NCBI GenBank assembly: GCA_965261985.1
Contig: OZ253490.1
Span: 4,946,631-5,010,630, forward strand
Direction: 5' to 3'
Origin: Alphaproteobacteria bacterium
Lineage (GTDB): Bacteria > Pseudomonadota > Alphaproteobacteria > Bin95
Length of the DNA stretch: 64,000 bases
Part shown: positions 4,798 through 60,024 of the stretch, one piece after another
Position numbering within the stretch: the stretch's first letter is position 1
Layout: every line of letters starts with the position of its first letter
The notes under the pieces: model-generated
The model's input: the letters and a program-made list of their open reading frames with translations, nothing else
Database searches by the model: none
What the model was told of the DNA's origin: nothing
Position numbers and translations under genes: made by a program

Positions 4798-5442
4798 TCA
4801 ACGCAACTTCGCGAGAACGATCCGTTCGGCAGGGTGAACCTCTGGAAACCGGCTATAACACTCGCACCAATCGGCGGCGGCAGGAGAAAGCCAGCGAGTG
4901 ATCTGCACGATGTTCGCGTAGTGCTTGGGCAGATCCCACTGGAGTATCGGCTCGTGGTGGGCGACCCGGTTCCGGAGCGTTCTGATCGGCCTCAGCGGTG
5001 AGGAAAGGTCTTTGCGGCGGAGGCCCTTGCCGTCTTCCCGACGCGCGATGCCATGCAGGGTTTTCTGCCAGAGGACTTCGTAATCCGGCGACAGCATCGA
5101 GGTCCAGAAACTGAAGGTAAGGGCAGATACGATACGGCCGGGGGCCGGGTCCTTCCCGAATTCGGCGAGTTCTTCGTATGCCTTGCTGAGCTGGCGGCGC
5201 TGGTTCTCGATCGGCAGAAAACCGTCTTCGTCGAACCAGCGCGCGTGCAGTGCTTCTTCGAGGACGGAATGCACGCGGTTCCGAAGCACGACCTCCAAGA
5301 CTTGCAAGGGAGTGTACAGGGCTTCGGAAAGTCGCGTGTTGAGGGCGTAGAGTTCACGAGCGCGCGCGCGGTCCCCGTCCGCCCATTCGCGATAGCGGGC
5401 GAAGCGTTCAGGCGACAGGGCCGCTTCGAAGTCGGCGGTCAC
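4798..5442 (-). CDS. Abi_2-family (AbiD/AbiF-like) abortive-infection-type protein. Start is most likely the GTG at 5442 (SD AAGAGG 9 nt upstream); the ORF extends to the ATG at 5622.
   Basis: …TLHGIARREDGKGLRRKDLSSPLRPIRTLRNRVAHHEPILQWDLPKHYANIVQITRWL…. The RNRVAHHEP motif is characteristic of Abi-like proteins. The gene sits next to the tRNA-Pro. Confidence 0.6.
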   Translation of the reverse strand: MTADFEAALSPERFARYREWADGDRARARELYALNTRLSEALYTPLQVLEVVLRNRVHSVLEEALHARWFDEDGFLPIENQRRQLSKAYEELAEFGKDPAPGRIVSALTFSFWTSMLSPDYEVLWQKTLHGIARREDGKGLRRKDLSSPLRPIRTLRNRVAHHEPILQWDLPKHYANIVQITRWLSPAAADWCECYSRFPEVHPAERIVLAKLR

Positions 5443-33435: not shown

Positions 33436-33526
33436 AGCTGTTGCAGCGGGCGCCGAATCGCGGTTCAATGTTTCTATATTTGTTCACCACACTGTCGGAC
33501 ACCGGGCAAGGGAGCAGCCGGGCGTA

Positions 33527-34891
33527 ATGGCAGACCGGGAGGATATGCTGTTGCCTCTTGACGACTCGAAGAGCGAAGCGAAAGCGACCAAAGACGCCCG
33601 GTCGGATTTTCGCGACCTGGCCTTTTCTTCAAACCGCGGTGAGCCCGTTCATAGGTGGGTCCCGTGGATCGCGGGCTATTCCCGGCAATTCGTGGAACGC
33701 GCCATCGACCTGCACATGAGCGGTCCCGGTGCGGTGCTCGACCCCTTTGCCGGAGTAGGGACGACGCTTGTGGAGGCAGACCGGAGGGGGTACGAATCGG
33801 TCGGCTTCGAGATCAATCCTTATGCGGCGTTCGCCGCCCGCACGAAACTTGCTGCCCATCTCGTCGATACCGGACTCCTGCGCGATACCATCGGCGCATT
33901 TGCACATTTTGCCCACGATGCCGAACGGCATAGCAGGGAGCCTCGGGCAACGCCTCCCGCTGGCTTCAACACAAGAACAGCATTCTATAGTCCCAGTGTT
34001 CAATGGAAAGTATTGACGACACAAGACTTTATTGTGGACATCTCCGACCATTTGATCGCCGACTTCTTTCGTCTTGCTTTTGCATCGACAATGGTTACCT
34101 ATTCGAATTATTCATATGAACCAAGTCTCGGACGGAAGGCAACGGCCGGCCGGCCCGATGTTGACGATTATCCAGTGTTCGCAGAACTGACTGCAAAGCT
34201 GACGGTCATGGCTGCCGATGCAGACTTGTGGAGAGAAGGTCGAGACAATCGGCAACAGCATCGCAGTAAAATTCATGGTGTTTCGTTTTTCGAATTCTAC
34301 AAGAAAATTTCTCAAGAAAGTGTCGATTTGTTAATTACCTCGCCTCCATATTTGAACAACTATCACTATAACCGCAACACAAGGCCTCATCTTTATTGGC
34401 TAGGATTTTGCGACTCTCCTAAGGATTTCAAACAATTGGAACAGAAAAATTTCGGCACTTACTGGCAAACGGCAAGGGACATGAGCCCGATACCCATTAA
34501 CTCCGCAATTGCGAATGACGAAATCAACTCTCTGCTGTCCAATTTGCGTGCCGTGAATCCCGAAAAAGGAATATATGGGGGACAAGGTTGGGCGAACTAT
34601 GCCGCGCTGTATTTCAATGACTGTCTGCGCTTTGCCGAGGGCATGAAATGGTGCCTTCGCCCGGGCGCTACCGCCCTGATCGTTATCGGTAACAGTATCC
34701 TGCAAGGCATACCTGTGGCTACCGACCGTTTCCTCGCCGAAATCGCCGAGAGCGCCGGCATGGAAGCTATCGAGATACATACGCCACGCGATGCCCGTGT
34801 CGGCAACAGCATCGTCAATTCGAGCGTCCGGGTAGGCAAGGCCAATGGCGGCCGCTTGTACGAATCGGTGGTCGAACTGCGCCGGCCATGA
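33527..34891 (+). CDS. DNA methyltransferase, N4-cytosine or N6-adenine type (alpha-class motif order: FxGxG … SPPY)
   Basis: …VLDPFAGVGTTLVEADRRGYESVGFEINPY… (motif I) and …DLLITSPPYLNNYHYNRN… (motif IV). 454 aa. The central part is AT-richer. Confidence 0.85.
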   Translation: MADREDMLLPLDDSKSEAKATKDARSDFRDLAFSSNRGEPVHRWVPWIAGYSRQFVERAIDLHMSGPGAVLDPFAGVGTTLVEADRRGYESVGFEINPYAAFAARTKLAAHLVDTGLLRDTIGAFAHFAHDAERHSREPRATPPAGFNTRTAFYSPSVQWKVLTTQDFIVDISDHLIADFFRLAFASTMVTYSNYSYEPSLGRKATAGRPDVDDYPVFAELTAKLTVMAADADLWREGRDNRQQHRSKIHGVSFFEFYKKISQESVDLLITSPPYLNNYHYNRNTRPHLYWLGFCDSPKDFKQLEQKNFGTYWQTARDMSPIPINSAIANDEINSLLSNLRAVNPEKGIYGGQGWANYAALYFNDCLRFAEGMKWCLRPGATALIVIGNSILQGIPVATDRFLAEIAESAGMEAIEIHTPRDARVGNSIVNSSVRVGKANGGRLYESVVELRRP

Positions 34892-35469
34892 CTGTAAAGC
34901 TGTACGATCCGCTGACCTACGAGAACCTCATGGCCGGACTCACGCTACATTTCGGCGGGCAGGCCAAGGTCCCTTTGGACGGTGCCGAAGAGGCTCCGGG
35001 TCCTGGAATATATGCCCTGTTCTACACGGGACAGTTCGACGCCTATCGCCCGATTTCGGGGACCGATGCCCCGATCTATGTCGGCAAGGCCGTTCCGCCC
35101 GGGTCTCGGCGAGGAGACGATGTCGATATCGAAAAGCCTGTCCTGCGGCAAAGGCTACGGGAGCACGCACGATCTATTGCCGCTGCGGACAATCTCGACC
35201 TCTCGCACTTCACCTGCCGGCACCTCTCGGTAGTTCCTGTCTGGATTACCCTGGCCGAACGCTTTCTCGTCAACCGCCATCGGCCGCTTTGGAATGTTTG
35301 CCTCGACGGCTTCGGAGACCACGATCCCGGTCGGGGTAGAAGCGGGAGCGAACGGAGTTGGTGGGATACACTCCATCCCGGACGGCCCTGGACCGAAAAG
35401 CTTCAGAAGAACAAGTCCGAGGCGGCAGCGTTGACGATGGTGCGCACTTTCCTCGATGGAGGAAGCTGA
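34888..35469 (+). CDS. GIY-YIG restriction endonuclease, Eco29kI/NgoMIII-like
   Basis: …GPGIYALFYTGQFDAYRPISGTDAPIYVGKAVPPGSRRGDD… GIY-…-YVG motif. 193 aa. ATGA-coupled to the MTase. Confidence 0.7.
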   Translation: MTVKLYDPLTYENLMAGLTLHFGGQAKVPLDGAEEAPGPGIYALFYTGQFDAYRPISGTDAPIYVGKAVPPGSRRGDDVDIEKPVLRQRLREHARSIAAADNLDLSHFTCRHLSVVPVWITLAERFLVNRHRPLWNVCLDGFGDHDPGRGRSGSERSWWDTLHPGRPWTEKLQKNKSEAAALTMVRTFLDGGS

Positions 35470-45986: not shown

Positions 45987-46043
45987 CTACCAGGTCTCGC
46001 CGAAGGGGCGCAGTTCGACGCGGAAGGACCAGGCGGAGCGTTC
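45987..46043. repeat. Direct repeat, left copy (relic copy of the SDR gene 3' end), flanking low-GC cassette 1
   Basis: ctaccaggtctcgccgaaggggcgcagttcgacgcggaaggaccaggcggagcgttc against 47381-47437 ctactaggtctcgccgaaggggcggagttcgacgcggatggaccaggcggaacggtc. 52/57 identical. Confidence 0.8.
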
Positions 46044-46181
46044 ATGACGGACGACGCGGTTTGAACTCCGGCAACGCCCACATGCCGCTTGCCCTGCTAA
46101 TCCCAAAGGCGCGCGATGCTGTGACCACCCTAACTGTCCGTCGACTGTCCTATCTGTACAGATCATCCAATCGGTACGACT

Positions 46182-47332
46182 CTACCACTCCGACTCGGTC
46201 GACCCGTCCTCAGAGTCGTCCGGCAGTGCGAAATCATATAGGTCCGCAATTCTGATTTCAGGTTCCTTCAAAGAACACAACAAATCGTTCAGTGCATCAG
46301 CGGCAACATTACATTCTCCAAATTCCAATTCCAATCGACCAGAAAAATGAAATGTATGGGTTACTTCAACTTCCGAATAATGATCATTTAGAAATGAAGT
46401 GGAGTATTCTCTTGGGTCCAATTCAATCGCATCCATTATTGGCAAAGCAAATTGGTACATAAGCTCTGTTTCTGCATGAACTTCTGCCATAAATAATCTA
46501 TCACCAATGTACTCCATACCTTCAATATCAACTCTATGCGGCGCACTTATTCCGCTGAGGTATATCTCACCGCTTTCTCCCGGAAAATTGTCTCCGTATA
46601 TTGTCGAATAATTACCGGATAACAACTCTTCTTCTATGTATTTTGCAATTTCTTCCGATTTTACCTTTGCGATTTGCAAGACATGTTCGCATACAACGGA
46701 GCTGTGCTCCATAATTTTTTGCTCCGCAAAGAAATCTCTAACCTTCGGACTAGTAATGAATTTCAGAAGATCGCTCCAGCAATCGATAGCAATGCTCTCA
46801 CATGCGGCTCGCAGCGCGCCATCCGCTACGACAACCTCTAGATCAGAACCATAGCATTTCTGTAAGCTAATAATCTGTTGGAATATGAACGAATCAGGAA
46901 TGTCTCCACGCGTCTTTGGATTCTTTAGAGGTGGATATCCTTTGAAATAGGCTTCAAGTGCACCGTCAAGTTGTTCCAAAGTGATTGTGTGCCTAATAGC
47001 TTTATGCTCTTCTAACCATTGGGAAAAAGCGGAAACACGTTCAAACACTAGATCATCCAGATCGCACCTTAGTTGTTCCAAAGTGAGCTTTAAGTCCTTT
47101 GATTTTGTGCCTAGAGGCACATGGTCCAAGGCTTTAGAAATATTATTACTTGCATCAGCAATCCTTTTCCTTTGGACTTGCTCTAAATACGACGTATGCT
47201 CCCTCTCAACCACATAAGGTACATGAAGAACCACTTGTCCTGCACCCATAAGTCGCGCCAGAAGTTTAAAGTCCGTAGAATCTAGTCTTGGACATTGTCG
47301 AAATATACTACTATCCAAAACAACGTGCATCA
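46182..47332 (-). CDS. PIN-like-domain protein (DUF4935-like N-terminus), 383 aa, cargo of low-GC cassette 1
   Basis: MMHVVLDSSIFRQCPRLDSTDFKLLARLMGAGQVVLHVPYVVEREHT… resembles PIN-like N-termini; the rest is unknown. Visibly AT-rich. Alternative GTG start at 47378, 3 nt from the SDR stop. Confidence 0.55.
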
Positions 47333-47380
47333 TTGACTTAGCCTGACGTGATAGTGCCCGACAATCCGTGCCAAGCACTC

Positions 47381-47437
47381 CTACTAGGTCTCGCCGAAGG
47401 GGCGGAGTTCGACGCGGATGGACCAGGCGGAACGGTC
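47381..47437. repeat. Direct repeat, right copy (the functional 3' end of the SDR gene 47384-48090)
   Basis: See 45987-46043. Confidence 0.8.
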
Positions 47438-48090
47438 TTGGTGGGCGACGCTGTAGATTTCCTCCGCGATCACCGGGGGCTTCGCGAAGAAGTCGTCCGG
47501 CTTGCCCGGCGCCAGCACCTCGCGGGTGCGCGGCGTGTCGATTGCGGCGTCGATGATGAAATAGGCGACGTGGATGCCCTCAGGCCCGAATTCGCGGGCG
47601 ATGGATTCCGCCAGTATCCGCTGCGCCGCCTTGGTCGAGGCGAAGAAGCCGAAATTCTTGCCGCCCCTTGTGGCCGAGGTGTTGCCGGTCACCAGGATCG
47701 CGCCCTTGCCCGCTTCCAGCATCGCCGGAATGGTCTCGCGGGCGAGATAGAGCAGCGCCGTCGTGTTGACGCGGAAGTTCCTTTCCAGGTCGTCCGGGTC
47801 CAGCTCCAGGATGCCGCCCCGGGTGGAGCGGAGCGCGTTGTGGACCACGACTGCGGGCGCGCCCATCTCCGCCCCGATGCGCGAGACGGTTTCGACGAGG
47901 GCATCCAGATCGGCGACGTCGCACCGATAGGCGCGGGCGTCCTCATACTTGCCGGCGAGCGCGTCGAGATTGTCCGCATTGCGGGCCAGCATGGCGACCC
48001 GGTAGCCGCTCTCGCCGAAGCGTCTGGCGGTCTCGGCGCCGGTGCCGCCTTCGGGCCCGACGCCGGTGACGAGGCAGACCGGCTTGCTCA
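47384..48090 (-). CDS. SDR-family oxidoreductase (paralog of 7704-8408)
   Basis: VSKPVCLVTGVGPEGGTGAETARRFGESGYRVAMLARN…NALRST…. GTG start with a weak SD. Confidence 0.8.
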
Positions 48091-48101
48091 CGGCCAGCAA
48101 C

Positions 48102-48734
48102 CTAGATCTGGAAGGCCGGCCGCGCCGACACCTTGGCGAACCAGGCGGCGGTGGCGGGCCATGATGCGTTGATGTCCATCTCCAGCGCATAGGCCATGCG
48201 CAGGGTGAAGAAGGCGGTGATGTCGGCGACGGTGAACGCCGGTCCGGCGACGAACTCGTTCTGAGCCATGTGCGGCTCGACGCGGCCTAGGAAGACTTCC
48301 ATCATCTCCTTGCCCCGGGTAACCATTGCCGGCGATTGCGGCAGGTCGGTGCGCGTGCCGGGCACGACCCTGCCGGCGAAGTTCGGCAGATGGTTGCGCA
48401 GCGCGTGCAGCAACGGGACGAAACCGTCCAGCTCGAAGCGGCGCAGCCACATGTCGATGACGGCGCGCTCCGCGGGCGTGCGCCCGAACAGCGGCGGCTC
48501 CGGGTGCAGCTCCTCCAGATAGCTGCAGATCGACATCGATTCCGCGATCGCCGAGCCGTCGTCCAACACCATGAACGGCACGCAGTGGAAGGGGTTCAAG
48601 GACATGAACGGCTCGACGAACAATGCGCCTTCGCGCACATTCACCTGCTCGGTCGGGACCTCCAGCCCCTTCTCGGCCAGATAGACCTGGACGCGCTGGG
48701 CGCTGGGCGCCAGCTTGAAATCGTAAAGCTTCAT
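48102..48734 (-). CDS. Glutathione S-transferase family protein
   Basis: MKLYDFKLAPSAQRVQVYLAEKGLEVPTEQVNVREGA…FHCVPFMVLDDGSAIAESMSICSYL…. Confidence 0.75.
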   Translation of the reverse strand: MKLYDFKLAPSAQRVQVYLAEKGLEVPTEQVNVREGALFVEPFMSLNPFHCVPFMVLDDGSAIAESMSICSYLEELHPEPPLFGRTPAERAVIDMWLRRFELDGFVPLLHALRNHLPNFAGRVVPGTRTDLPQSPAMVTRGKEMMEVFLGRVEPHMAQNEFVAGPAFTVADITAFFTLRMAYALEMDINASWPATAAWFAKVSARPAFQI

Positions 48735-50791: not shown

Positions 50792-51016
50792 ATCGTCGTC
50801 CCTCCTCCAGCAAGGTAAGACAAAAGTAAGATACACGGATTGGCGGCGAAGACCAAGGGCCGATTCCGGAAACCTCCCGCCCATCCGGCGAAAGAGCGAC
50901 CGCCCGCTGCTGAAAAATGGCGTTTCACCGCGCCTTTCCATTGGCTTTAAATCCACCGGAGCGACACACGTACTCATCGCCGATTTTGTCGCCCGACAGA
51001 TTGGAGGCCGGTAGCA

Positions 51017-51219
51017 TGGCGTCCTTGGAGAATACAGAAACCAGTGTCGCGCAGAATCCGTTGGTCGATGTCATGGAGCGCCTTGCACGGATAGAAGCGC
51101 GACTGGACACGATGGCCACCAAGGAAGACTTGGCGAAGCTCACCAACAAGTTCTGGAGTACCATGTTCGCCATAGCCATCATGGCCGCCGGCCTCGTTAC
51201 CACGGCGACCAAGGTCTAG
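51017..51219 (+). CDS. Small hypothetical protein (67 aa) with a coiled-coil and a C-terminal TM helix
   Basis: MASLENTETSVAQNPLVDVMERLARIEARLDTMATKEDLAKLTNKFWSTMFAIAIMAAGLVTTATKV. GGAGG SD 9 nt upstream. Confidence 0.45.
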
Positions 51220-51284
51220 CTATAGCGAGGCCATGTATGCAACCAACTGGAATTCGGATTTAACTTCAAGAATAGTGACGCAAA

Positions 51285-51781
51285 CTATGTGCACTTAAAC
51301 ACGACAAGTGAAGTTAATTCTAATTCCAGATTTTTCAGATAGGGAGAGTTCACCCTGAATTCTTCATCAATTGAGGATGCAGAATCAATAACGACAAACC
51401 TCTTGCTCTCCGGATTTTCCTTCTTGATCGTAAACCAATGATCTTCAGTGCCTACTATTGCACATTTTGGATCACAAATTCGGAATATTTCTTGAAGCTT
51501 TTCCACATATTCTTCCTTCGTATTGGGCGGGTCTCGATCAAATGGATAATCAAATTCAAATTGGTCAGCATGTCCAATATGCTTCCTGCAATACTCAAGC
51601 ATTTTTTCATATCTTCAAAATAGGTCCCTACCCAAATGCCCGACGGCCACGTCAAGTCCCCCCCGAGAGCACGGCATGCCAGCCTAAATACTCGGAATTC
51701 ATCTTCTACACCACACGCCTTGAAAGCATTAGTGACAGCATACATCCCGCAAAGTCCATCGTATGCTCCTTGATATGCCAT
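51285..51781 (-). pseudogene. Frameshifted C39/papain-like cysteine-peptidase-domain gene, AT-rich
   Basis: The two overlapping ORFs 51455-51781 (MAYQGAYDGLCGMYAVTNAFKACG…, Q…C motif) and 51285-51602 are probably one gene broken between 51455 and 51602. Confidence 0.4.
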
Positions 51782-51838
51782 GCCTTATTCTCTCTCTTGG
51801 TAGATCGAAGAACGGGAAGCCCTTTCCGGAAACCCGCT

Positions 51839-54954: not shown

Positions 54955-55490
54955 AGGCCGCGCCTCCCCCTCTTGTCACCCCGGACGGCGTGCCTCCACC
55001 TCTTGTCACCCCGGACGGCGCGAAGCGGCGATCCGGGGCCCAGCCCGCCGGCACCGCGCCGGGTCGCAGCGGCGGTGCTGGACCCCGGCTCGGAGGCCGG
55101 GGCGACAACGAGGGTGGCCGGTGTTCGAAGCCGGCGGCGTTTCCTCCCCCGTCAACCCCGACAGCCCGCCTCCCCCATCGTCACCCCGGACGGCGTGCCT
55201 CCACCTCTTGTCACCCCGGACGGCGCGAAGCGGCGATCCGGGGCCCAGCCCGCCGGCACCGCGCCGGGTCGCAGCGGCGGTGCTGGACCCCGGCTCGGAG
55301 GCCGGGGCGACAACGAGGGTGGCCGGTGTTCGAAGCCGGTGGCGTTTCCTCCCCCGTCAACCCCGACAGCCCGCCTCCCCCATCGTCACCCCGGACGGCG
55401 CGGAGCGGCGGTCCGGGGCCCAGCCCGCCGGGACCCTGCCGGGTTGCAGCGGCGGTGCTGTTAGCGTTTCATTTGGCCCGACCCGGGCGA
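54955..55490 (+). repeat. Repeat family B tandem expansion (~206-bp unit about 2.5 times, each unit containing nested TGTCACCCCGGACGGCG elements)
   Basis: Unit cctccacctcttgtcaccccggacggcgcgaagcggcgatccggggcccagcccgccggcaccgcgccgggtcgcagcggcggtgctggacc… recurs at ~54992 and ~55198 with 1-2 mismatches. Terminal copy …gcagcggcggtgctgttagcgtttcatttggcccg. Confidence 0.8.
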
Positions 55491-55512: not shown

Positions 55513-56448
55513 ATGACGCGGTTCTGGACGGTCTGCCTTGCGCTCATCCTCGCACCGCTGGCCTCGGCGGATGGCAAGGAGTTGAAGCCGAAACCCGGCG
55601 ATATCGGCGGGGTCTTCTATACGGAGGTGTCGGGCGAGCCGGAGCCCGCGCCCGGCGTAGTCCCGGCGGACCGGCTCATGCAGGCGCGGGCCCGGACGAA
55701 TGTGCGCAGCGGGCCGGGGACCGACCATGCCAAAATCGGGCTGCTGGAAGCGGGCCGGGAGGTGCGGGTGACGGGCGAGGCCGGCGAGTGGCTGCGGATC
55801 GAGGTCCCGGACGGCGGCGCGGCCTTCGTCCACGGCTCGCTGCTTGCCGCGCCCGTCCCGCAGGGCCGGAACCGGGCGGCGGCGCTCTCGCCGAAATGCG
55901 CAGGGATGAGCAAGGGCGGCGCGTGCTGGCAGGAACTCGCCGACCGTCCAGGCTGCCACTTCTGGTACGACTATTACAATCCCAAGGTAAGCTGGACCTG
56001 GTCGGGAGCGTGCCGGGACGGCGCCGCAAACGGACGGGGAACGCTGGCGGCGACGTGGAGCGGCGGGTCCGCCGAACTCGGTGGAACGCTGGATGGCGGC
56101 AGGATGCAGGGCCGGTGGGTCATCCGCTACGCTGACGGGAGGGTTGACGAAGGCACTTATCTGAATGGCAAGAAGCACGGCCGGTGGACCGACCGCTACG
56201 CCAATGGGCGGGTCGATGAAGGCCCCTATGCGAATGGCAGGAAGCACGGCCGATGGGTGGATCGCTATGCCAGCGGCAACAGCTTCGAATACGACTACCG
56301 CGACGGCTCGGTGGACGGACAGCCGGGGGTCTATGTCATCGAGGACGGTGAACGCTATCCGGGGCGCTGGTTCGGCAACTGCTTCCTGGACGGCGAGGGC
56401 CGCTTGTGGGTTTGGCGCGGCAACAAGGACAATTGCCCCTCCGAATAG
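55513..56448 (+). CDS. Secreted SH3b-domain plus MORN-repeat protein
   Basis: Signal peptide MTRFWTVCLALILAPLASADG. SH3b-like …TNVRSGPGTDHAKIGLLEAGREVRVTGEAGEWLRIE…. MORN repeats …YLNGKKHGRWTDRYANGRVDEGPYANGRKHGRWVDRYASG…. SD GGAGAA. Confidence 0.7.
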   Translation: MTRFWTVCLALILAPLASADGKELKPKPGDIGGVFYTEVSGEPEPAPGVVPADRLMQARARTNVRSGPGTDHAKIGLLEAGREVRVTGEAGEWLRIEVPDGGAAFVHGSLLAAPVPQGRNRAAALSPKCAGMSKGGACWQELADRPGCHFWYDYYNPKVSWTWSGACRDGAANGRGTLAATWSGGSAELGGTLDGGRMQGRWVIRYADGRVDEGTYLNGKKHGRWTDRYANGRVDEGPYANGRKHGRWVDRYASGNSFEYDYRDGSVDGQPGVYVIEDGERYPGRWFGNCFLDGEGRLWVWRGNKDNCPSE

Positions 56449-56639: not shown

Positions 56640-57950
56640 ATGGCGGAATATCTGAAGCGGGGCCGGACGGAGGCCCAGCGCGTCGAGGCGGATGCGAAGG
56701 TGCGCGCCGCCGTCGAGGCGATCCTGGACGACATCCGGGCGCGGGGCGACGAGGCCGTGCGGGCGCTCTCGAAGAAGTTCGACGACTGGTCGCCGGAGAG
56801 CTTCCGGCTGTCGGAGCAGGAGATCGAGCGGGCGCTCTCGCAGGTGGCGAAGCGCGATCTCGACGACATCCGCTTCGCCCAGGCCCAGGTGCGCGGTTTC
56901 GCCGAGCACCAGCGCGCCGCGCTCAAGGACATCGAGGTCGAGACGCTGCCGGGTGTGGTGCTTGGGCATAAGAACATCCCGGTGAACTCGGTCGGCTGCT
57001 ATGCGCCCGGCGGCAAATATCCCATCGTCGCCTCGGTGCATATGAGCGTCGTCACCGCCAAGGCCGCCGGCGTGCCGCGCATCGTGGCCGCCGCCCCGCC
57101 CGCGCAAGGCGGCGGCCCGCATGCGGCCATGGTCGCCGCCATGCATATGGGCGGGGCCGACGAAATCCTGGTGCTGGGCGGCGTGCAGGCGGTGGGCGCG
57201 ATGGCGCTCGGCACGGAGTCGGTGGCGCCGGTCGATATGCTGGTCGGTCCCGGCAACGCCTTCGTTGCGGAGGCCAAGCGCCAGCTCTTCGGCCGTGTCG
57301 GCATCGACCTGCTGGCGGGCCCGACCGAGACCCTGCTGGTCGTGGACGAGACGGTGGACGCCGAGCTCTGCGCGACCGACCTGCTGGGCCAGGCCGAGCA
57401 CGGTCCCGACAGCCCGGCCATACTGGTGACGAACTCGCGCACGCTGGCCGAAGCCACCATGGCCGAGGTCGAGCGCCTGCTGACCATCCTGCCGACGGCC
57501 GCCAATGCCGGCGCCGCCTGGCGGGACTATGGGGAGGCGATCGTCTGCGCCGACCATGACGAGATGCTGGCGGAAGCCGAGCGCATCGCATCCGAGCATG
57601 TGCAGGTGATGACCGACCGGGACGAGTGGTACCTGGAGAACATGACCAACTACGGCGCGCTGTTCCTCGGGCCGCGCACCAATGTCTCCTATGGCGACAA
57701 GGTGATCGGCACCAACCACACCCTGCCCACCCGCCGCGCGGCGCGCTACACGGGCGGCCTCTGGGTCGGCAAGTTCATCAAGACGCACACCTACCAGCGC
57801 ATATTGACCGACGAGGCCTCGGCCGCGCTCGGCGAGGTCTGCTCCCGGCTCTGCATGCTGGAGGGCTTCGTCGGCCATGCAGAGCAGGCCAATCTGCGCG
57901 TCCGCCGCCTCGGCGGCCGTAACATCCCCTACGGCACGGCAGCGGAGTGA
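56640..57950 (+). CDS. Histidinol-dehydrogenase-family protein (hisD-like, in a catabolic gene context)
   Basis: …[32 protein letters not shown]…[35 protein letters not shown]…[15 protein letters not shown]…. Start at ATG 56640 (TTG at 56595 possible). Confidence 0.8.
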
Positions 57951-59020
57951 CGGCGCTGCTGCCCGGCGCGATCGACTGCGACCTGCATCCGGCGCCGCCG
58001 TCCGTCTCCGCGCTCCTGCCATACTTGGAGCCGCATTGGGCCGATGCGGCGGGGCATCGCGGGCTGCACGAGCTGGAGACCATTGCCTGGCCGCCCAATG
58101 CGCCGCTCTCCTGCCGGCCCGACTGGCGGGACGGCGCCGCGCGGCCCGGCAGCGACCCCGCCCGCCTGATAGGCGACGCCGTGGACGGCTTCGGCACCCG
58201 CTACGCCATCCTCAACTGCCTCTACGGCGCGCCGATGCTCTATTCCGAGGACATGGCGGCCGGCTTCTGCCGCGCGCTGAACGACTGGCTGAAGGCGGAA
58301 TGGCTCGACCGCGACCCGCGCCTGCGCGCCTCCATCCTCATGCCGCCGCACGCCCCGGACCTTGCGGCGGAAGAGATCGAGCGCGCCGGGGCGGACCGGC
58401 GGTTCGTGCAGGTGCTGCTGCCGGTCATGGGCGAGACGCCGCCCGGCCGGCGGACCAACTGGCCGATCTACGCCGCGGCCGAGCGGGCGGGCCTGCCGGT
58501 CGCCTTCCATGCCGGCTCCGCCTACCGCCACCCGCCGACACCGGTCGGCTGGCCCTCCTATCTCGCCGAGGACTACGCCGCGCAGGCAACCGCCTTCCAG
58601 TCGGCGCTCACCAGCCTCATCGCCGAAGGCGTGTTCCGGAAGTTCCCGGAGCTTACCGTCGTGTTCGCGGAATCGGGCGTCGCCTGGCTGCCGGCGCATC
58701 TCTGGCGGCTGACGAAATACTGGCGCGGGCTGCGCATGGAAATCCCCTGGGTGGACCGCAGCCCGGAGGAGATCGTGCGCGAGCGCATCCGCTTCACCAT
58801 CCAGCCCTTCGACGCGCCGCAGGAGCCGGAGGCGGTGGCCCGCCTGCTGGACCATCTGGGCTCGGACGACATGCTGCTGTTCGCCACCGACTACCCGCAC
58901 TGGCAGTTCGACGGCATGGGCGCGCTGCCCGAAGGCTTGCCAGAGGCCCTCGTCCGGCGTATCGCAGTGGACAATCCGCGCGCCACCTATCCGCGCCTCA
59001 GGGAGCATGTGTCTTGCTAA
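57947..59020 (+). CDS. Amidohydrolase_2-family (TIM-barrel metal-dependent hydrolase, ACMSD-like) protein A. The last residues after the repeat (…REHVSC) are supplied by cassette 2.
   Basis: …[11 protein letters not shown]…[12 protein letters not shown]…. GTG start overlapping the hisD-like stop (GTGA). Paralog of 60033-61151. Confidence 0.8.
58936..59005. repeat. Direct repeat, left copy (3' end of amidohydrolase A), flanking low-GC cassette 2
   Basis: cttgccagaggccctcgtccggcgtatcgcagtggacaatccgcgcgccacctatccgcgcctcagggag against 59955-60024 cttgccagaagacctcgtccggcgtatcgtggtggataatccgcgcgccacctatccgcgcctcagggag. All mismatches are in the first 38 bp. Confidence 0.8.
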
Positions 59021-59130
59021 CTTGGTGATTGGTGTTGGTATGAATTACATTGCATTGTAATCATCGTGCCCTGCGTCGACATCTATCTGTCTTGCGCTCT
59101 TAAGTTGCCCTCCAAGTAGGAGAAAATCCC

Positions 59131-59868
59131 GTGAGGCTCAGCGATAAGGACTTAGACAATATGCCCTCTGATCGCGAGGGTGCTTTTATGTATCTCGAAC
59201 AATTAAGCAAAGAGGAATACGAACTCCGCGCACGAAACGATAAGGATCACAATACTAACGAGGATGGTAGATATTTTGGTTCTTTTGAACCAGAATGGAC
59301 GTATGTCTCAGACATTCTGGCGTGTCTTGATGAATTGATTCTCGAAATTGATGTCCCAGATATTACCGACATTTTCAAAAACGATTGGGACAAGGATCAA
59401 GACATTATGAAAGAGTTTAATTTCTTTAGGCAGCGAGTGAACTACATTGTTTCCAGATTTAGGATTAGAAGGGCGAGGATGTACAATGGGAGTGCTGGCA
59501 CTCCTGTATCAATAAAGTCAAATTACAAAGAGGAAATTGGAAATTTGCTGAACACTATCAGAAAGATAGTTAATCAACAGGTAGTTGATGACAAGAAAAA
59601 GGAGGCAATTTTCAAGAAGATCGTCTCCTTACAATTGGAGGTGGACCGAGATAGAACCACCATTGATGTTCTGTTTGGAAACATGCTGGATTTTACGAAA
59701 ACTTTAGGCGAGTGCACGGATAACCTAGAACCCCTGTTGGAAAAAGTAGAACGATTGAAAAAACTAATTTGGGACAATGTTGGCAAAGTTGATGCTCTTC
59801 CAGAGAAGGAGAGGCCCAAGCTCATTGAGTCACCATCTAATGAACTAGACGATGACATTCCGTTTTGA
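59131..59868 (+). CDS. Hypothetical protein, 245 aa, cargo of low-GC cassette 2
   Basis: GTG start with SD AGGAGA. MRLSDKDLDNMPSDREGAFMYLEQLSKEEYELRARN…. Strongly AT-rich, coiled-coil-rich, no recognised family. Confidence 0.55.
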   Translation: MRLSDKDLDNMPSDREGAFMYLEQLSKEEYELRARNDKDHNTNEDGRYFGSFEPEWTYVSDILACLDELILEIDVPDITDIFKNDWDKDQDIMKEFNFFRQRVNYIVSRFRIRRARMYNGSAGTPVSIKSNYKEEIGNLLNTIRKIVNQQVVDDKKKEAIFKKIVSLQLEVDRDRTTIDVLFGNMLDFTKTLGECTDNLEPLLEKVERLKKLIWDNVGKVDALPEKERPKLIESPSNELDDDIPF

Positions 59869-59954
59869 TGGAACCTACTGTGTGTACAGTTTAAGGTGAT
59901 CTGTACAGATAGGGTAATCGCCTGACAGTGGCGGCTTCAGCTGGCGACAAAGGA

Positions 59955-60024
59955 CTTGCCAGAAGACCTCGTCCGGCGTATCGTGGTGGATAATCCGCGC
60001 GCCACCTATCCGCGCCTCAGGGAG
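59955..60024. repeat. Direct repeat, right copy (native gene end with the stop overlapping the amidohydrolase B start)
   Basis: See 58936-59005. Followed by GGAGGGGGAGCC-GTG, the start of the next gene. Confidence 0.8.

What the first reader, a model, noticed from the sequence alone, without database searches (positions are those of the whole stretch)
46149..46165. Shared 17-bp palindromic motif TGATCTGTACAGATAGG immediately downstream of the cargo gene in both cassettes (also at 59897-59913)
The two cassettes share no other obvious sequence, lie in opposite orientations and are 12 kb apart. Both nonetheless contain the identical 17-mer, with a perfect 12-bp palindrome ATCTGTACAGAT, 17-29 bp after the cargo stop codon and before the relic copy of the host gene end. 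Cassette 2 has a second partial copy (ctgtgtgtacag, 59877-59888). AT-rich perfect palindromes are poor intrinsic terminators and look more like a dimeric protein-binding or recombination site. The motif was not seen anywhere else in the 64 kb. It could be the element-side recombination site of a cassette family mobilised by a recombinase encoded elsewhere, in the way IMEX elements use host Xer at dif-like sites.
Basis: partly seen in the sequence, partly recalled or inferred. Interest (0 to 1): 0.75.

Follow-up and report, generated by a model that had tools for sequence, protein, structure and literature searches.

The report
Leftover ends of an IS481-family insertion sequence
The shared 17-base "palindrome" is real, but it is the outer tip of the terminal inverted repeat of an IS481-family insertion sequence, left as a truncated stub beside each foreign gene; it is not a new cassette recombination site.

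Summary
TGATCTGTACAGATAGG occurs exactly twice in the window (46149-46165 minus, 59897-59913 plus), far beyond chance, and the shared block extends to about 33 nt.

The interpretation does not hold. Scans of two very large sequence collections found the 17-mer only at chance level, except on two metagenome contigs. There the same block sits directly after the stop codon of a C-terminal fragment of an IS481-family transposase.

From its sixth base the motif aligns without gaps to the inverted repeats of ISAs19: 24-25 of 34 positions, 0 of 20,000 shuffles. It shares the family layout, a TGT tip followed about 20 nt later by CTGACAG. Twenty read-through ORFs and six ISAs19 copies place the element boundary at TGTACA.

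Both window copies are solo stubs. They have no transposase gene and no partner repeat, and their tips face the cargo genes, so the cargo lies outside the insertion sequence. Tests for dif, attC, terminator and RNA structure were negative.

Two things remain unexplained: the 70/74-nt duplications of the host gene ends, and the identical TGATC flank. Strain comparison suggests cassette 2 spread recently as a unit bounded by its repeats. Overall this is a known kind of element, of low to moderate interest.

The parts
46149..46165 (-). The 17-mer in cassette 1. It comprises 5 nt of outside flank (TGATC, 46165-46161) plus the first 12 nt of the inverted repeat (TGTACAGATAGG, 46160-46149).
46127..46160 (-). 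Solo IS481-family terminal inverted repeat of cassette 1, with the tip at 46160 and the interior running towards lower coordinates. The inner box is degenerate (CGGACAG instead of CTGACAG).
   Evidence: 19/34 ungapped identity to ISAs19 IRL, 5/20000 shuffles; alignment A3; signature scan
46061..46126 (-). 66 nt between the repeat and gene-end relic B1. It is probably further IS-internal sequence. It has no significant similarity to the SDR gene.
45987..46060 (-). Relic copy B1 of the last 74 nt of the SDR gene (...ETW*), next to the terminator hairpin shared with the convergent amidohydrolase gene.
46182..47333 (-). Cargo 1: a 383-aa PIN_12/DUF4935 protein at about 41% GC. Its last 8 residues run past the end of all homologues into GC-rich DNA.
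47381..47454 (-). Copy A1: the functional 3' end of the SDR gene (ORF 47384-48190), now ending ...ET*.
58936..59005 (+). Copy A2: near the 3' end of Amidohydro_2 gene 57947-59020. The gene now ends HVSC* instead of GEP*.
59006..59130 (+). Low-GC leader of cassette 2, upstream of cargo 2.
59131..59868 (+). Cargo 2: a 245-aa protein with no family assignment, about 39% GC, with the conserved C-terminus DDIPF.
59877..59888 (+). Partial TGTACAG-like copy in the flank (ctgtgtgtacag). Its origin is unresolved: possibly a symmetric target sequence, or the degenerate tip of another repeat.
   Evidence: not significant on its own
59897..59913 (+). The 17-mer in cassette 2. It comprises the 5-nt flank TGATC (59897-59901) plus the first 12 nt of the inverted repeat.
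59902..59954 (+). Solo IS481-family end of cassette 2. The repeat has its tip at 59902 and the CTGACAG box at 59922-59928. Homology to the metagenome IS end runs to about 59936-59947. The stub stops where relic B2 starts.
   Evidence: 24-25/34 identity to the ISAs19 repeats, 0/20000 shuffles; 91% over 43-44 nt to L031/L036
59955..60024 (+). Relic copy B2 of the Amidohydro_2 gene end. It continues into the ancestral ...GEP* stop, which overlaps the GTG start of the next gene (60033).

Best explanation
The 17-mer is 5 nt of flanking DNA (TGATC) followed by the first 12 nt of the terminal inverted repeat of an IS481-family insertion sequence, a relative of ISAs19. In a working element this repeat is where the IS's DDE (rve-type) transposase acts. 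It binds an inner box (CTGACAG, about 20 nt in) and cuts and joins at the TGT tip. The 'perfect palindrome' arises because the tip TGTACA is self-complementary and the next three bases inside (GAT) happen to complement the three bases outside (ATC).

In this window both copies are truncated solo ends: about 53 nt in cassette 2 and 34 to about 100 nt in cassette 1. There is no transposase gene and no partner repeat within 64 kb. Each tip faces the cargo gene, so the cargo is outside the IS and the IS interior is cut off at the relic gene end.

Shown: the homology and family membership of the repeat, the position of the element boundary, and the solo, truncated state.

Inferred: the stubs are now inert fossils, and an IS copy abutted the foreign low-GC DNA when or before it was fixed at the two host gene ends. 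There may have been one copy per cassette, or a single copy whose two ends are now the two stubs. On that reading the IS took part in building the junctions rather than in moving the cassettes today.
For: (1) Two metagenome contigs carry the 17-mer plus the same extended block, 91% identical to cassette 2 over 43-44 nt. In L031 the block starts 39 nt after the stop codon of a 57-aa C-terminal rve_3 fragment.
(2) That fragment belongs to a family of 140 representatives. A longer member has rve plus rve_3 domains, and its best annotated relative is 'IS481-like element ISAs19 family transposase' at 69% identity.
(3) A complete ISAs19 with a 7-bp target duplication (TATAAAG) defines its ends as TGTATGGAGATGGTATTCACCTGACAGTTGCC... 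and ...GGTGTCAGGTGATAACTAGATCTGTACA.
(4) Anchored at the tip and ungapped, cassette 2 matches these repeats at 24 and 25 of 34 positions, L031 at 25 and 24, and cassette 1 at 19 and 16. Shuffles reaching those values were 0, 0 and 5-39 of 20,000 (alignment).
(5) IS481 elements from Bradyrhizobium and Microvirga show the same layout: a TGT/TGA tip, 20-22 nt, then CTGACA.
(6) Twenty independent read-through ORFs of the family encode the same repeat in three frames and diverge right after ...CTGTACA. Six ISAs19 copies have unrelated flanks right up to TGTACAG. Both results fix the boundary at position 6 of the 17-mer.
(7) Homology among the three contexts stops sharply on the cargo side and fades on the other side.
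(8) No IS481 transposase and no second repeat is present in the window or in related strains.
Against: The 5 nt outside the tip (TGATC) are identical in cassette 1, cassette 2 and L036, and position -7 is G in all three. Other family members have unrelated flanks, so the shared unit may reach slightly beyond the canonical tip.

IS481-family elements make duplications of only a few bp (5-7 bp in the copies examined). The IS alone therefore does not explain the 70/74-nt gene-end repeats.

Two independent truncations that both end at the start of relic B look non-random.

No full-length copy of this particular IS was recovered, so its second repeat and its own target duplication are unknown.

Cassette 1's inner box is degenerate.
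Confidence: 0.85

Rival explanations
1. The repeat is still a working cis site. An IS481-family transposase supplied in trans uses this end together with a surrogate second end beyond the cargo, as ISEcp1 does, to move 'IS plus adjacent gene' units. The cargo genes would be passengers captured on the outer side of the repeat.
For: The cargo lies on the outer side of the tip in both cassettes, in the same orientation. Between the window and strain L049 the cassette-2 interior, including the stub, differs at 6/949 positions. The host gene differs at 53/989 and relic B at 4/70. That pattern suggests recent spread as a unit.
Against: The IS body, the transposase gene and the distal repeat are missing, so the presumed transposition unit is not intact. 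No short target duplication brackets the cassettes; instead there are 70/74-nt repeats. The low-divergence tract ends in the direct repeats, not at a repeat tip. The background divergence between these strains is mosaic anyway.
Confidence: 0.08
2. One reading: the palindrome is the element-side core site of a family of integrase-less cassettes that are inserted by a host or trans-acting site-specific recombinase (Xer at dif-like sites, or integron-like).
For: The cassettes are flanked by direct repeats of the target gene end, as integrase-driven elements are. The motif sits at a similar position in both. The cassette-2 interior looks recently exchanged between strains, with boundaries in the repeats.
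Against: The best matches to dif and to the XerC/XerD arms are no better than in shuffles, and no attC R''/R' core sites are present. There is no conserved structure. The exact 17-mer gave 10 genome and 28 metagenome hits, all single and unrelated apart from L031/L036. Homologous cargo islands lack the motif. The sequence is fully accounted for as an IS481 repeat.
Confidence: 0.03
3. The two stubs are the two ends of a single IS copy. That copy would have inserted, with a 4-bp GATC duplication, between convergent cargo-2 and cargo-1 genes of one foreign low-GC island. The island was later broken within the IS, and its halves ended up at two host gene ends 13.7 kb apart.
For: On the plus strand the junctions read TGTACA|GATCATCC and AAGGTGATC|TGTACA, which fits one GATC duplication at a near-palindromic target. 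The two tips point away from each other, so the 13.7 kb between them is on the outer side of both. The two repeats differ from each other (25/36) about as much as I estimated by eye for the left and right repeats of ISAs19 (roughly 60-70% identity). Both cargo genes have the same unusual composition.
Against: L036 carries the same flank in an unrelated context, which fits a target preference instead. The reconstructed intergenic region is not a significant hairpin. Homologues of the two cargo proteins were not found adjacent in any of the contigs I retrieved. Several further rearrangement steps are needed.
Confidence: 0.15
4. The palindrome is an operator for a dimeric transcription factor that regulates neighbouring genes.
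For: In Pseudomonas sp. NW5 the same 17-mer lies in an intergenic region with four TGTACAG-like boxes between two protease genes.
Against: In the window it lies downstream of the cargo genes. In cassette 1 it is followed only by a relic and a convergent gene end. The promoter scans found no more sites than in shuffles. The 34-nt homology to IS repeats explains it fully.
Confidence: 0.02

Closest known systems
IS481-family insertion sequences, closest annotated relative ISAs19 (Aeromonas / Providencia plasmids)
   Same: The repeat layout matches: a TGT tip, about 20 nt, then CTGACAG. Identity to the ISAs19 repeats is 24-25/34. In the metagenome copy the repeat lies about 50 nt after the stop codon of an rve-type transposase, against 48 nt in ISAs19.
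   Different: The window copies are solo, truncated ends with no transposase gene or partner repeat. The specific IS is not in the plasmid or phage collections. All three known junctions share the flank TGATC.
Solo inverted repeats and IS remnants left by partial deletion of insertion sequences
   Same: One repeat plus a few tens of nt of interior survive next to unrelated DNA. C-terminal fragments of this transposase family, some fused to unrelated gene fragments, are common in metagenomes. L057 holds an ISAs19-type repeat with no transposase hit nearby.
   Different: Here two stubs occupy equivalent positions in two similarly built cassettes, and each is cut off exactly at a duplicated host gene end.
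Integrase-driven elements that duplicate a gene's 3' end, and att-flanked integrase-less derivatives called CIMEs. Examples from my own knowledge: e14 and phage 21 in icd. CIME is a term used in PMC5704250, which I saw in a search listing but did not read.
   Same: Imperfect direct repeats of tens of nt from the target gene's 3' end bracket foreign DNA. The upstream copy keeps the gene functional and the downstream copy is a displaced relic.
   Different: No integrase, no recognisable core or arm sites, and two different target genes. The only shared sequence is an IS end.
IMEX elements / dif modules (XerCD) and integron attC cassettes
   Same: Small recombinase-less gene cassettes with a palindromic site at one end.
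   Different: There is no 28-bp XerC-spacer-XerD organisation, no attC core sites and no folded structure. Those systems do not duplicate 70 nt of target.
Mobile insertion cassettes and MITEs (non-autonomous IS derivatives)
   Same: IS-derived repeats associated with passenger genes and no transposase.
   Different: Those elements have two repeats with tips facing outward around the passenger. Here there is one repeat per cassette, and its tip faces the passenger.

Membership tests
IS481-family terminal inverted repeat | Terminal 5'-TGT tip at a sharp boundary of homology between independent copies | tested here: met
   The tip TGTACAG starts at position 6 of the 17-mer. Twenty read-through ORFs and six ISAs19 copies diverge exactly there. 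Homology among cassette 1, cassette 2 and L036 ends within 5-9 nt of it.
IS481-family terminal inverted repeat | Conserved inner box CTGACA(G) about 20 nt from the tip, and overall sequence similarity to known family repeats | tested here: met
   Cassette 2 and L031 carry CTGACAG at +21. Ungapped identity to ISAs19 IRL/IRR is 24-25/34, with 0/20000 shuffles. Bradyrhizobium and Microvirga IS481 repeats have the same layout. Cassette 1 is degenerate (CGGACAG; 19/34, 5/20000).
IS481-family terminal inverted repeat | Adjacent IS481-type DDE (rve) transposase gene | tested here: inconclusive
   Met in the metagenome relative L031: an rve_3 fragment whose family's best annotated hit is the ISAs19 transposase. 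Not met in the window or in strains L011, L048, L049 and L050 (tblastn).
Complete, potentially active IS481-family element | Two inverted repeats about 1-1.4 kb apart, flanked by a short target duplication | tested here: not met
   No second repeat appeared in any search: up to 3 mismatches, a profile search and a family-signature scan. The interiors end after 53 nt and about 100 nt.
dif / XerCD site (IMEX) | 28-bp site made of an 11-nt XerC arm, a 6-nt spacer and an 11-nt XerD arm (TTATGTTAAAT-like) | tested here: not met
   The best matches were 12-15/28 to dif and 6-7/11 to the arms. These values were reached by 70-299 of 300 shuffles. One of the two dif consensus sequences used was recalled from memory.
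Integron attC | R'' (RYYYAAC) and R' (GTTRRRY) core sites bracketing a folding imperfect palindrome | tested here: not met
   Neither core site occurs on either strand at either end of either cassette. Folding z-scores ran from -0.9 to +0.8.
att-flanked integrase-less element (CIME-like) | Direct repeats derived from attL/attR of a tyrosine or serine recombinase element, with a cognate integrase in the genome | not testable with these tools
   Direct repeats are present. No integrase was looked for or seen near the cassettes, and the rest of the 5.6-Mb genome could not be read.
Mobile insertion cassette / MITE | Passenger bracketed by two repeats with tips facing outward | tested here: not met
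   There is a single repeat per cassette, with its tip facing the cargo.
Intrinsic terminator | GC-rich hairpin followed by a T tract | tested here: not met
   No terminator-like site lies at the motif. Folding is no better than in shuffles.

The most novel reading that the evidence does not exclude
The IS481 stub and the 70/74-nt gene-end duplication could be two signatures of one undescribed IS-assisted route by which single foreign genes become fixed at the 3' ends of host genes. One possibility is an aberrant copy-out circle that takes along the adjacent cargo and about 70 nt of host gene and then re-enters naive genomes by recombination through that segment. Another is a single foreign island broken inside its IS, whose two halves were joined at staggered breaks. 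The low divergence of the cassette-2 interior between strains would then reflect continuing spread as a unit bounded by its repeats.
Probability: 0.15. Interest if true: 0.6.

Novelty: new member of a known kind. Interest (0 to 1): 0.3.

Why it matters
The result removes a false lead. A striking shared palindrome beside two unrelated foreign genes is an ordinary insertion-sequence end, not a new recombination system. It also gives a practical rule for such scans: a short, sharply bounded motif that starts with TGT and is shared by otherwise unrelated islands should first be checked against IS termini. What stays worth a second look is the cassette build itself: single low-GC genes, 70-nt duplications of host gene ends, and an IS stub cut off exactly at the relic. 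If these three features share one cause, that would describe a new way in which insertion sequences help fix foreign genes without disrupting host genes.

Tried and rejected
Chance: rejected.

A widespread conserved site: rejected. The exact 17-mer gave 10 genome hits and 28 metagenome hits, all single and in unrelated taxa with no GC island, except L031/L036. It gave 0 hits in viral contigs.

A motif that travels with the cargo families: rejected. Eight contigs with 41-61% identical homologues lack it.

Plasmid relatives of the block or of the host loci: none found.

Known RNA families: only a tRNA in the window.

RNA/DNA structure, terminator or promoter: no signal.

dif and attC: negative.

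A diversity-generating retroelement (template and variable repeats): rejected by eye, because the differences between the direct repeats are not adenine-specific.

Extension of relic B up to the repeat: not significant, 738/2000 shuffles.

The third protein homology search, with the 57-aa transposase fragment, returned only the query. The exhaustive representative search was needed instead.

Cassette-free strains: look-ups with host proteins returned only strains that carry the cassettes. An empty site for cassette 1 or 2 was therefore not obtained.

A hairpin in the reconstructed cargo2/cargo1 intergenic region: not significant.

Defence-system and NCBIfam models for the cargo proteins: no hits.

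Full report
**Observation.** The 17-mer TGATCTGTACAGATAGG is at 46149-46165 (minus strand) and 59897-59913 (plus strand). Nothing else in the window matches it, even with three mismatches, and none of 100 shuffles gave two hits. The 12-nt palindrome is equally unique.

Two sharply bounded islands of about 40% GC lie in a window of about 68% GC. Each holds one ORF:
- Cargo 1 (46182-47333, minus strand) is a 383-aa PIN_12/DUF4935 protein.
- Cargo 2 (59131-59868, plus strand) is a 245-aa protein with no family hit.

Each island is bracketed by imperfect direct repeats of the host gene's 3' end: 74 nt at 86% for an SDR gene, and 70 nt at 93% for an Amidohydro_2 gene. The downstream copy (B) continues into the ancestral arrangement. 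In cassette 2 that arrangement is a GTGA stop/start overlap with the next gene. A direct comparison of the cassettes shows that the shared block is 33 nt at 85% identity, not just 17 nt.

**How common is it?** The exact 17-mer was scanned in one genome per species (596 Gb), in the metagenome collection and in viral contigs.
- The genome scan gave 10 single hits in unrelated taxa, none in a GC island.
- The viral scan gave none.
- The metagenome scan gave 28 loci, of which 26 are unrelated.
- The Pseudomonas hit lies in a promoter-like region with several TGTACAG boxes and has nothing to do with cassettes.

Homologues of both cargo proteins (41-61% identity) were traced to eight contigs. None carries the motif or a profile match to the block. 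The motif is therefore neither a common site nor tied to the cargo families.

**The informative hits.** Contigs L031 and L036 share the 17-mer and a further stretch, 91% identical to cassette 2 over 43-44 nt. In L031 the block is followed, after 39 nt, by the stop codon of an antisense ORF fragment...AHYNTKRLHQGRGMGVRTPAEAFVRCLPKPKKPKEEKLTEAD*. This fragment matches Pfam rve_3 and is itself cut off by an IS256-like insertion.

An exhaustive search of protein representatives found 140 relatives, nearly all short C-terminal pieces. I read that pattern as what a multicopy element produces when it breaks assemblies. A longer member has rve plus rve_3 domains. Its best annotated relatives in plasmids are 'IS481-like element ISAs19 family transposase' at 69% identity, and IS481-family transposases of Bradyrhizobium, Microvirga and Burkholderia.

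**The motif is an IS481-family inverted repeat.** A complete ISAs19 in a Providencia plasmid is bounded by a 7-bp duplication (TATAAAG). Its ends read TGTATGGAGATGGTATTCACCTGACAGTTGCC... and ...GGTGTCAGGTGATAACTAGATCTGTACA, and its stop codon lies 48 nt from the tip.

From position 6 of the 17-mer the window sequence reads TGTACAGATAGGGTAATCGCCTGACAGTGGC. Anchored at the tip and without gaps, the identities are:
- cassette 2 against the ISAs19 repeats: 24 and 25 of 34 (0 of 20,000 shuffles);
- L031: 25 and 24 of 34 (0 of 20,000);
- cassette 1: 19 and 16 of 34 (5 and 39 of 20,000).

IS481 elements from Bradyrhizobium and Microvirga have the same plan: a TGT/TGA tip, 20-22 nt, then CTGACA.

Two independent lines place the element boundary exactly at TGTACA. 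Twenty ORFs of the transposase family read through into the repeat and encode it in three frames (LSG[DE]YP[IL]CT, CQxITLSV[HQ], [RS][LI]PYLY) before diverging completely. Six ISAs19 copies in viral contigs have unrelated flanks right up to the tip.

The 'palindrome' is thus the self-complementary tip TGTACA plus three complementary bases on either side. The conserved GACAGT that the two cassettes share further in is the family's inner box.

**State of the window copies.** Both are solo. No second repeat and no IS481 transposase is present in the window or in four related strain contigs. Cassette 2 keeps about 53 nt of the IS end, and cassette 1 keeps 34 nt of recognisable repeat plus up to 66 nt more. 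Each stub ends where relic B begins, and similarity of that spacer to the host gene is not significant.

Each tip faces the cargo gene, so the cargo lies outside the element this site belongs to. That excludes a MITE or mobile-insertion-cassette reading. Tests for dif or XerCD arms, attC core sites, terminators and folded structure were negative.

**What remains unexplained.**
1. The five bases outside the tip are identical in cassette 1, cassette 2 and L036, and position -7 is G in all three, although other family members have unrelated flanks. Either this IS prefers a GGTGATCACC-like target, or the two window stubs are the two ends of one IS copy inserted with a GATC duplication between convergent cargo genes. 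The plus-strand junctions TGTACA|GATCATCC and AAGGTGATC|TGTACA fit the second reading, and the tips point away from each other. The reconstructed intergenic region is not a significant hairpin.
2. The IS481-family copies examined here made duplications of only 5-7 bp, so the 70/74-nt repeats need another cause. Candidates are Campbell-type or integrase-type insertion of DNA carrying a copy of the gene end, or joining of a fragment at staggered positions.
3. Strain comparison is informative but not decisive.
   - L011 (99.4% identical to the window over the cassette-2 region, about 97% in neighbouring blocks) and L049 (about 94-97% identical) both carry cassette 2.
   - Between L049 and the window, the host gene differs at 53/989 positions, copy A at 2/70 and copy B at 4/70. 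The cassette interior, including the IS stub, differs at only 6/949.
   - The change in divergence falls within 15-30 nt of the repeats, against a generally mosaic background. This suggests recent exchange of the cassette as a unit bounded by its repeats.
   - Relic B has two extra C-to-T changes in the window relative to L011, as expected for a decaying relic.

**Verdict.** The interpretation as a novel cassette recombination site is not supported. The sequence is the end of an IS481-family insertion sequence, a known kind of element of which this seems to be an uncatalogued member, preserved as two truncated stubs. Whether the IS helped to build the two cassettes is an open, moderately interesting question that needs the full genome and cassette-free relatives to answer.

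Noticed in passing
L012-L019 (contigs with homologues of cargo 1 and cargo 2): Every homologue of both cargo proteins is a single, sharply bounded gene of 38-46% GC inside contigs of 60-75% GC. Several lie next to broken genes or plasmid/MGE genes (ParB, MobA, UmuD/C fragments). None has flanking direct repeats or the IS block. These two protein families seem to travel as isolated low-GC genes.
   Followed up: partly
window 50875-51818: A third island of about 0.94 kb (low-GC ORFs on the minus strand plus a 100-aa ORF at 50917-51219) is present in the window and in L050 but absent from strains L049 and L011. In those strains the MazE/PIN pair is followed directly by the 2OG-Fe(II) oxygenase gene end. 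The island is flanked by an imperfect 16-nt direct repeat, GCCGATTCCGGAAACC / GCCCTTTCCGGAAACC, and has no IS481 repeat.
   Followed up: partly
window 46182-46215: Cargo 1 has an 8-residue C-terminal extension (DGSTESEW) that all homologues lack, encoded by GC-rich DNA. The original stop codon seems to have been lost, and the ORF now runs into non-cargo sequence just before the IS flank.
   Followed up: no
window 33500-35300: A low-GC (45-52%) DNA methyltransferase-like ORF is followed by a small ORF that I judged by eye to be nuclease-like. This is probably an acquired restriction-modification pair.
   Followed up: no
window 54967-55376 and 56098-56235: There are tandem repeats of 205 nt (98% identical) and of 69 nt inside or near the SH3-domain gene. 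L011 has IS elements (DDE_Tnp_1 and IS1595 types) inserted just upstream that the window lacks.
   Followed up: no
window 38000-64000 (gene calls of L048, L011, L049): Small addiction-type modules are unusually dense between metabolic genes: several PIN/PhdYeFM and PIN/MazE pairs, AbiEii and Uma2.
   Followed up: no
representative proteins P0120, P0179, P0185: Some ORFs fuse unrelated N-terminal domains (DUF4145, GntR+FCD, YmdB) to the C-terminal rve_3 piece of this IS481 subfamily. Truncated 3' ends of the IS joined to host genes therefore seem common elsewhere too. P0129 has the repeat-encoded peptide fused directly to an internal part of the transposase.
   Followed up: no
L031 730-1975: The IS256-like element that truncates the IS481 transposase gene has matching inverted repeats (AGAATCTTTCGCAC / GTGCGAAAGATTCT). 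By eye it has no matching target duplication on its two sides, which suggests a later rearrangement at that IS.
   Followed up: no
L057 about 5290-5345: An ISAs19-type repeat has no transposase hit nearby and an interior that diverges after about 36 nt. It may be another solo end or a derivative element.
   Followed up: no
L004 3600-3710 (Pseudomonas sp. NW5): The same 17-mer occurs among four TGTACAG-like boxes between two trypsin-like protease genes. It looks like an operator array and is unrelated to the window feature.
   Followed up: no
window 59956-59984: A sigma-70-like promoter match (TTGCCA-17-TATCGT) starts at the first bases of relic B2, 77 nt upstream of the next gene's start. It may be one reason why this stretch was retained.
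   Followed up: no
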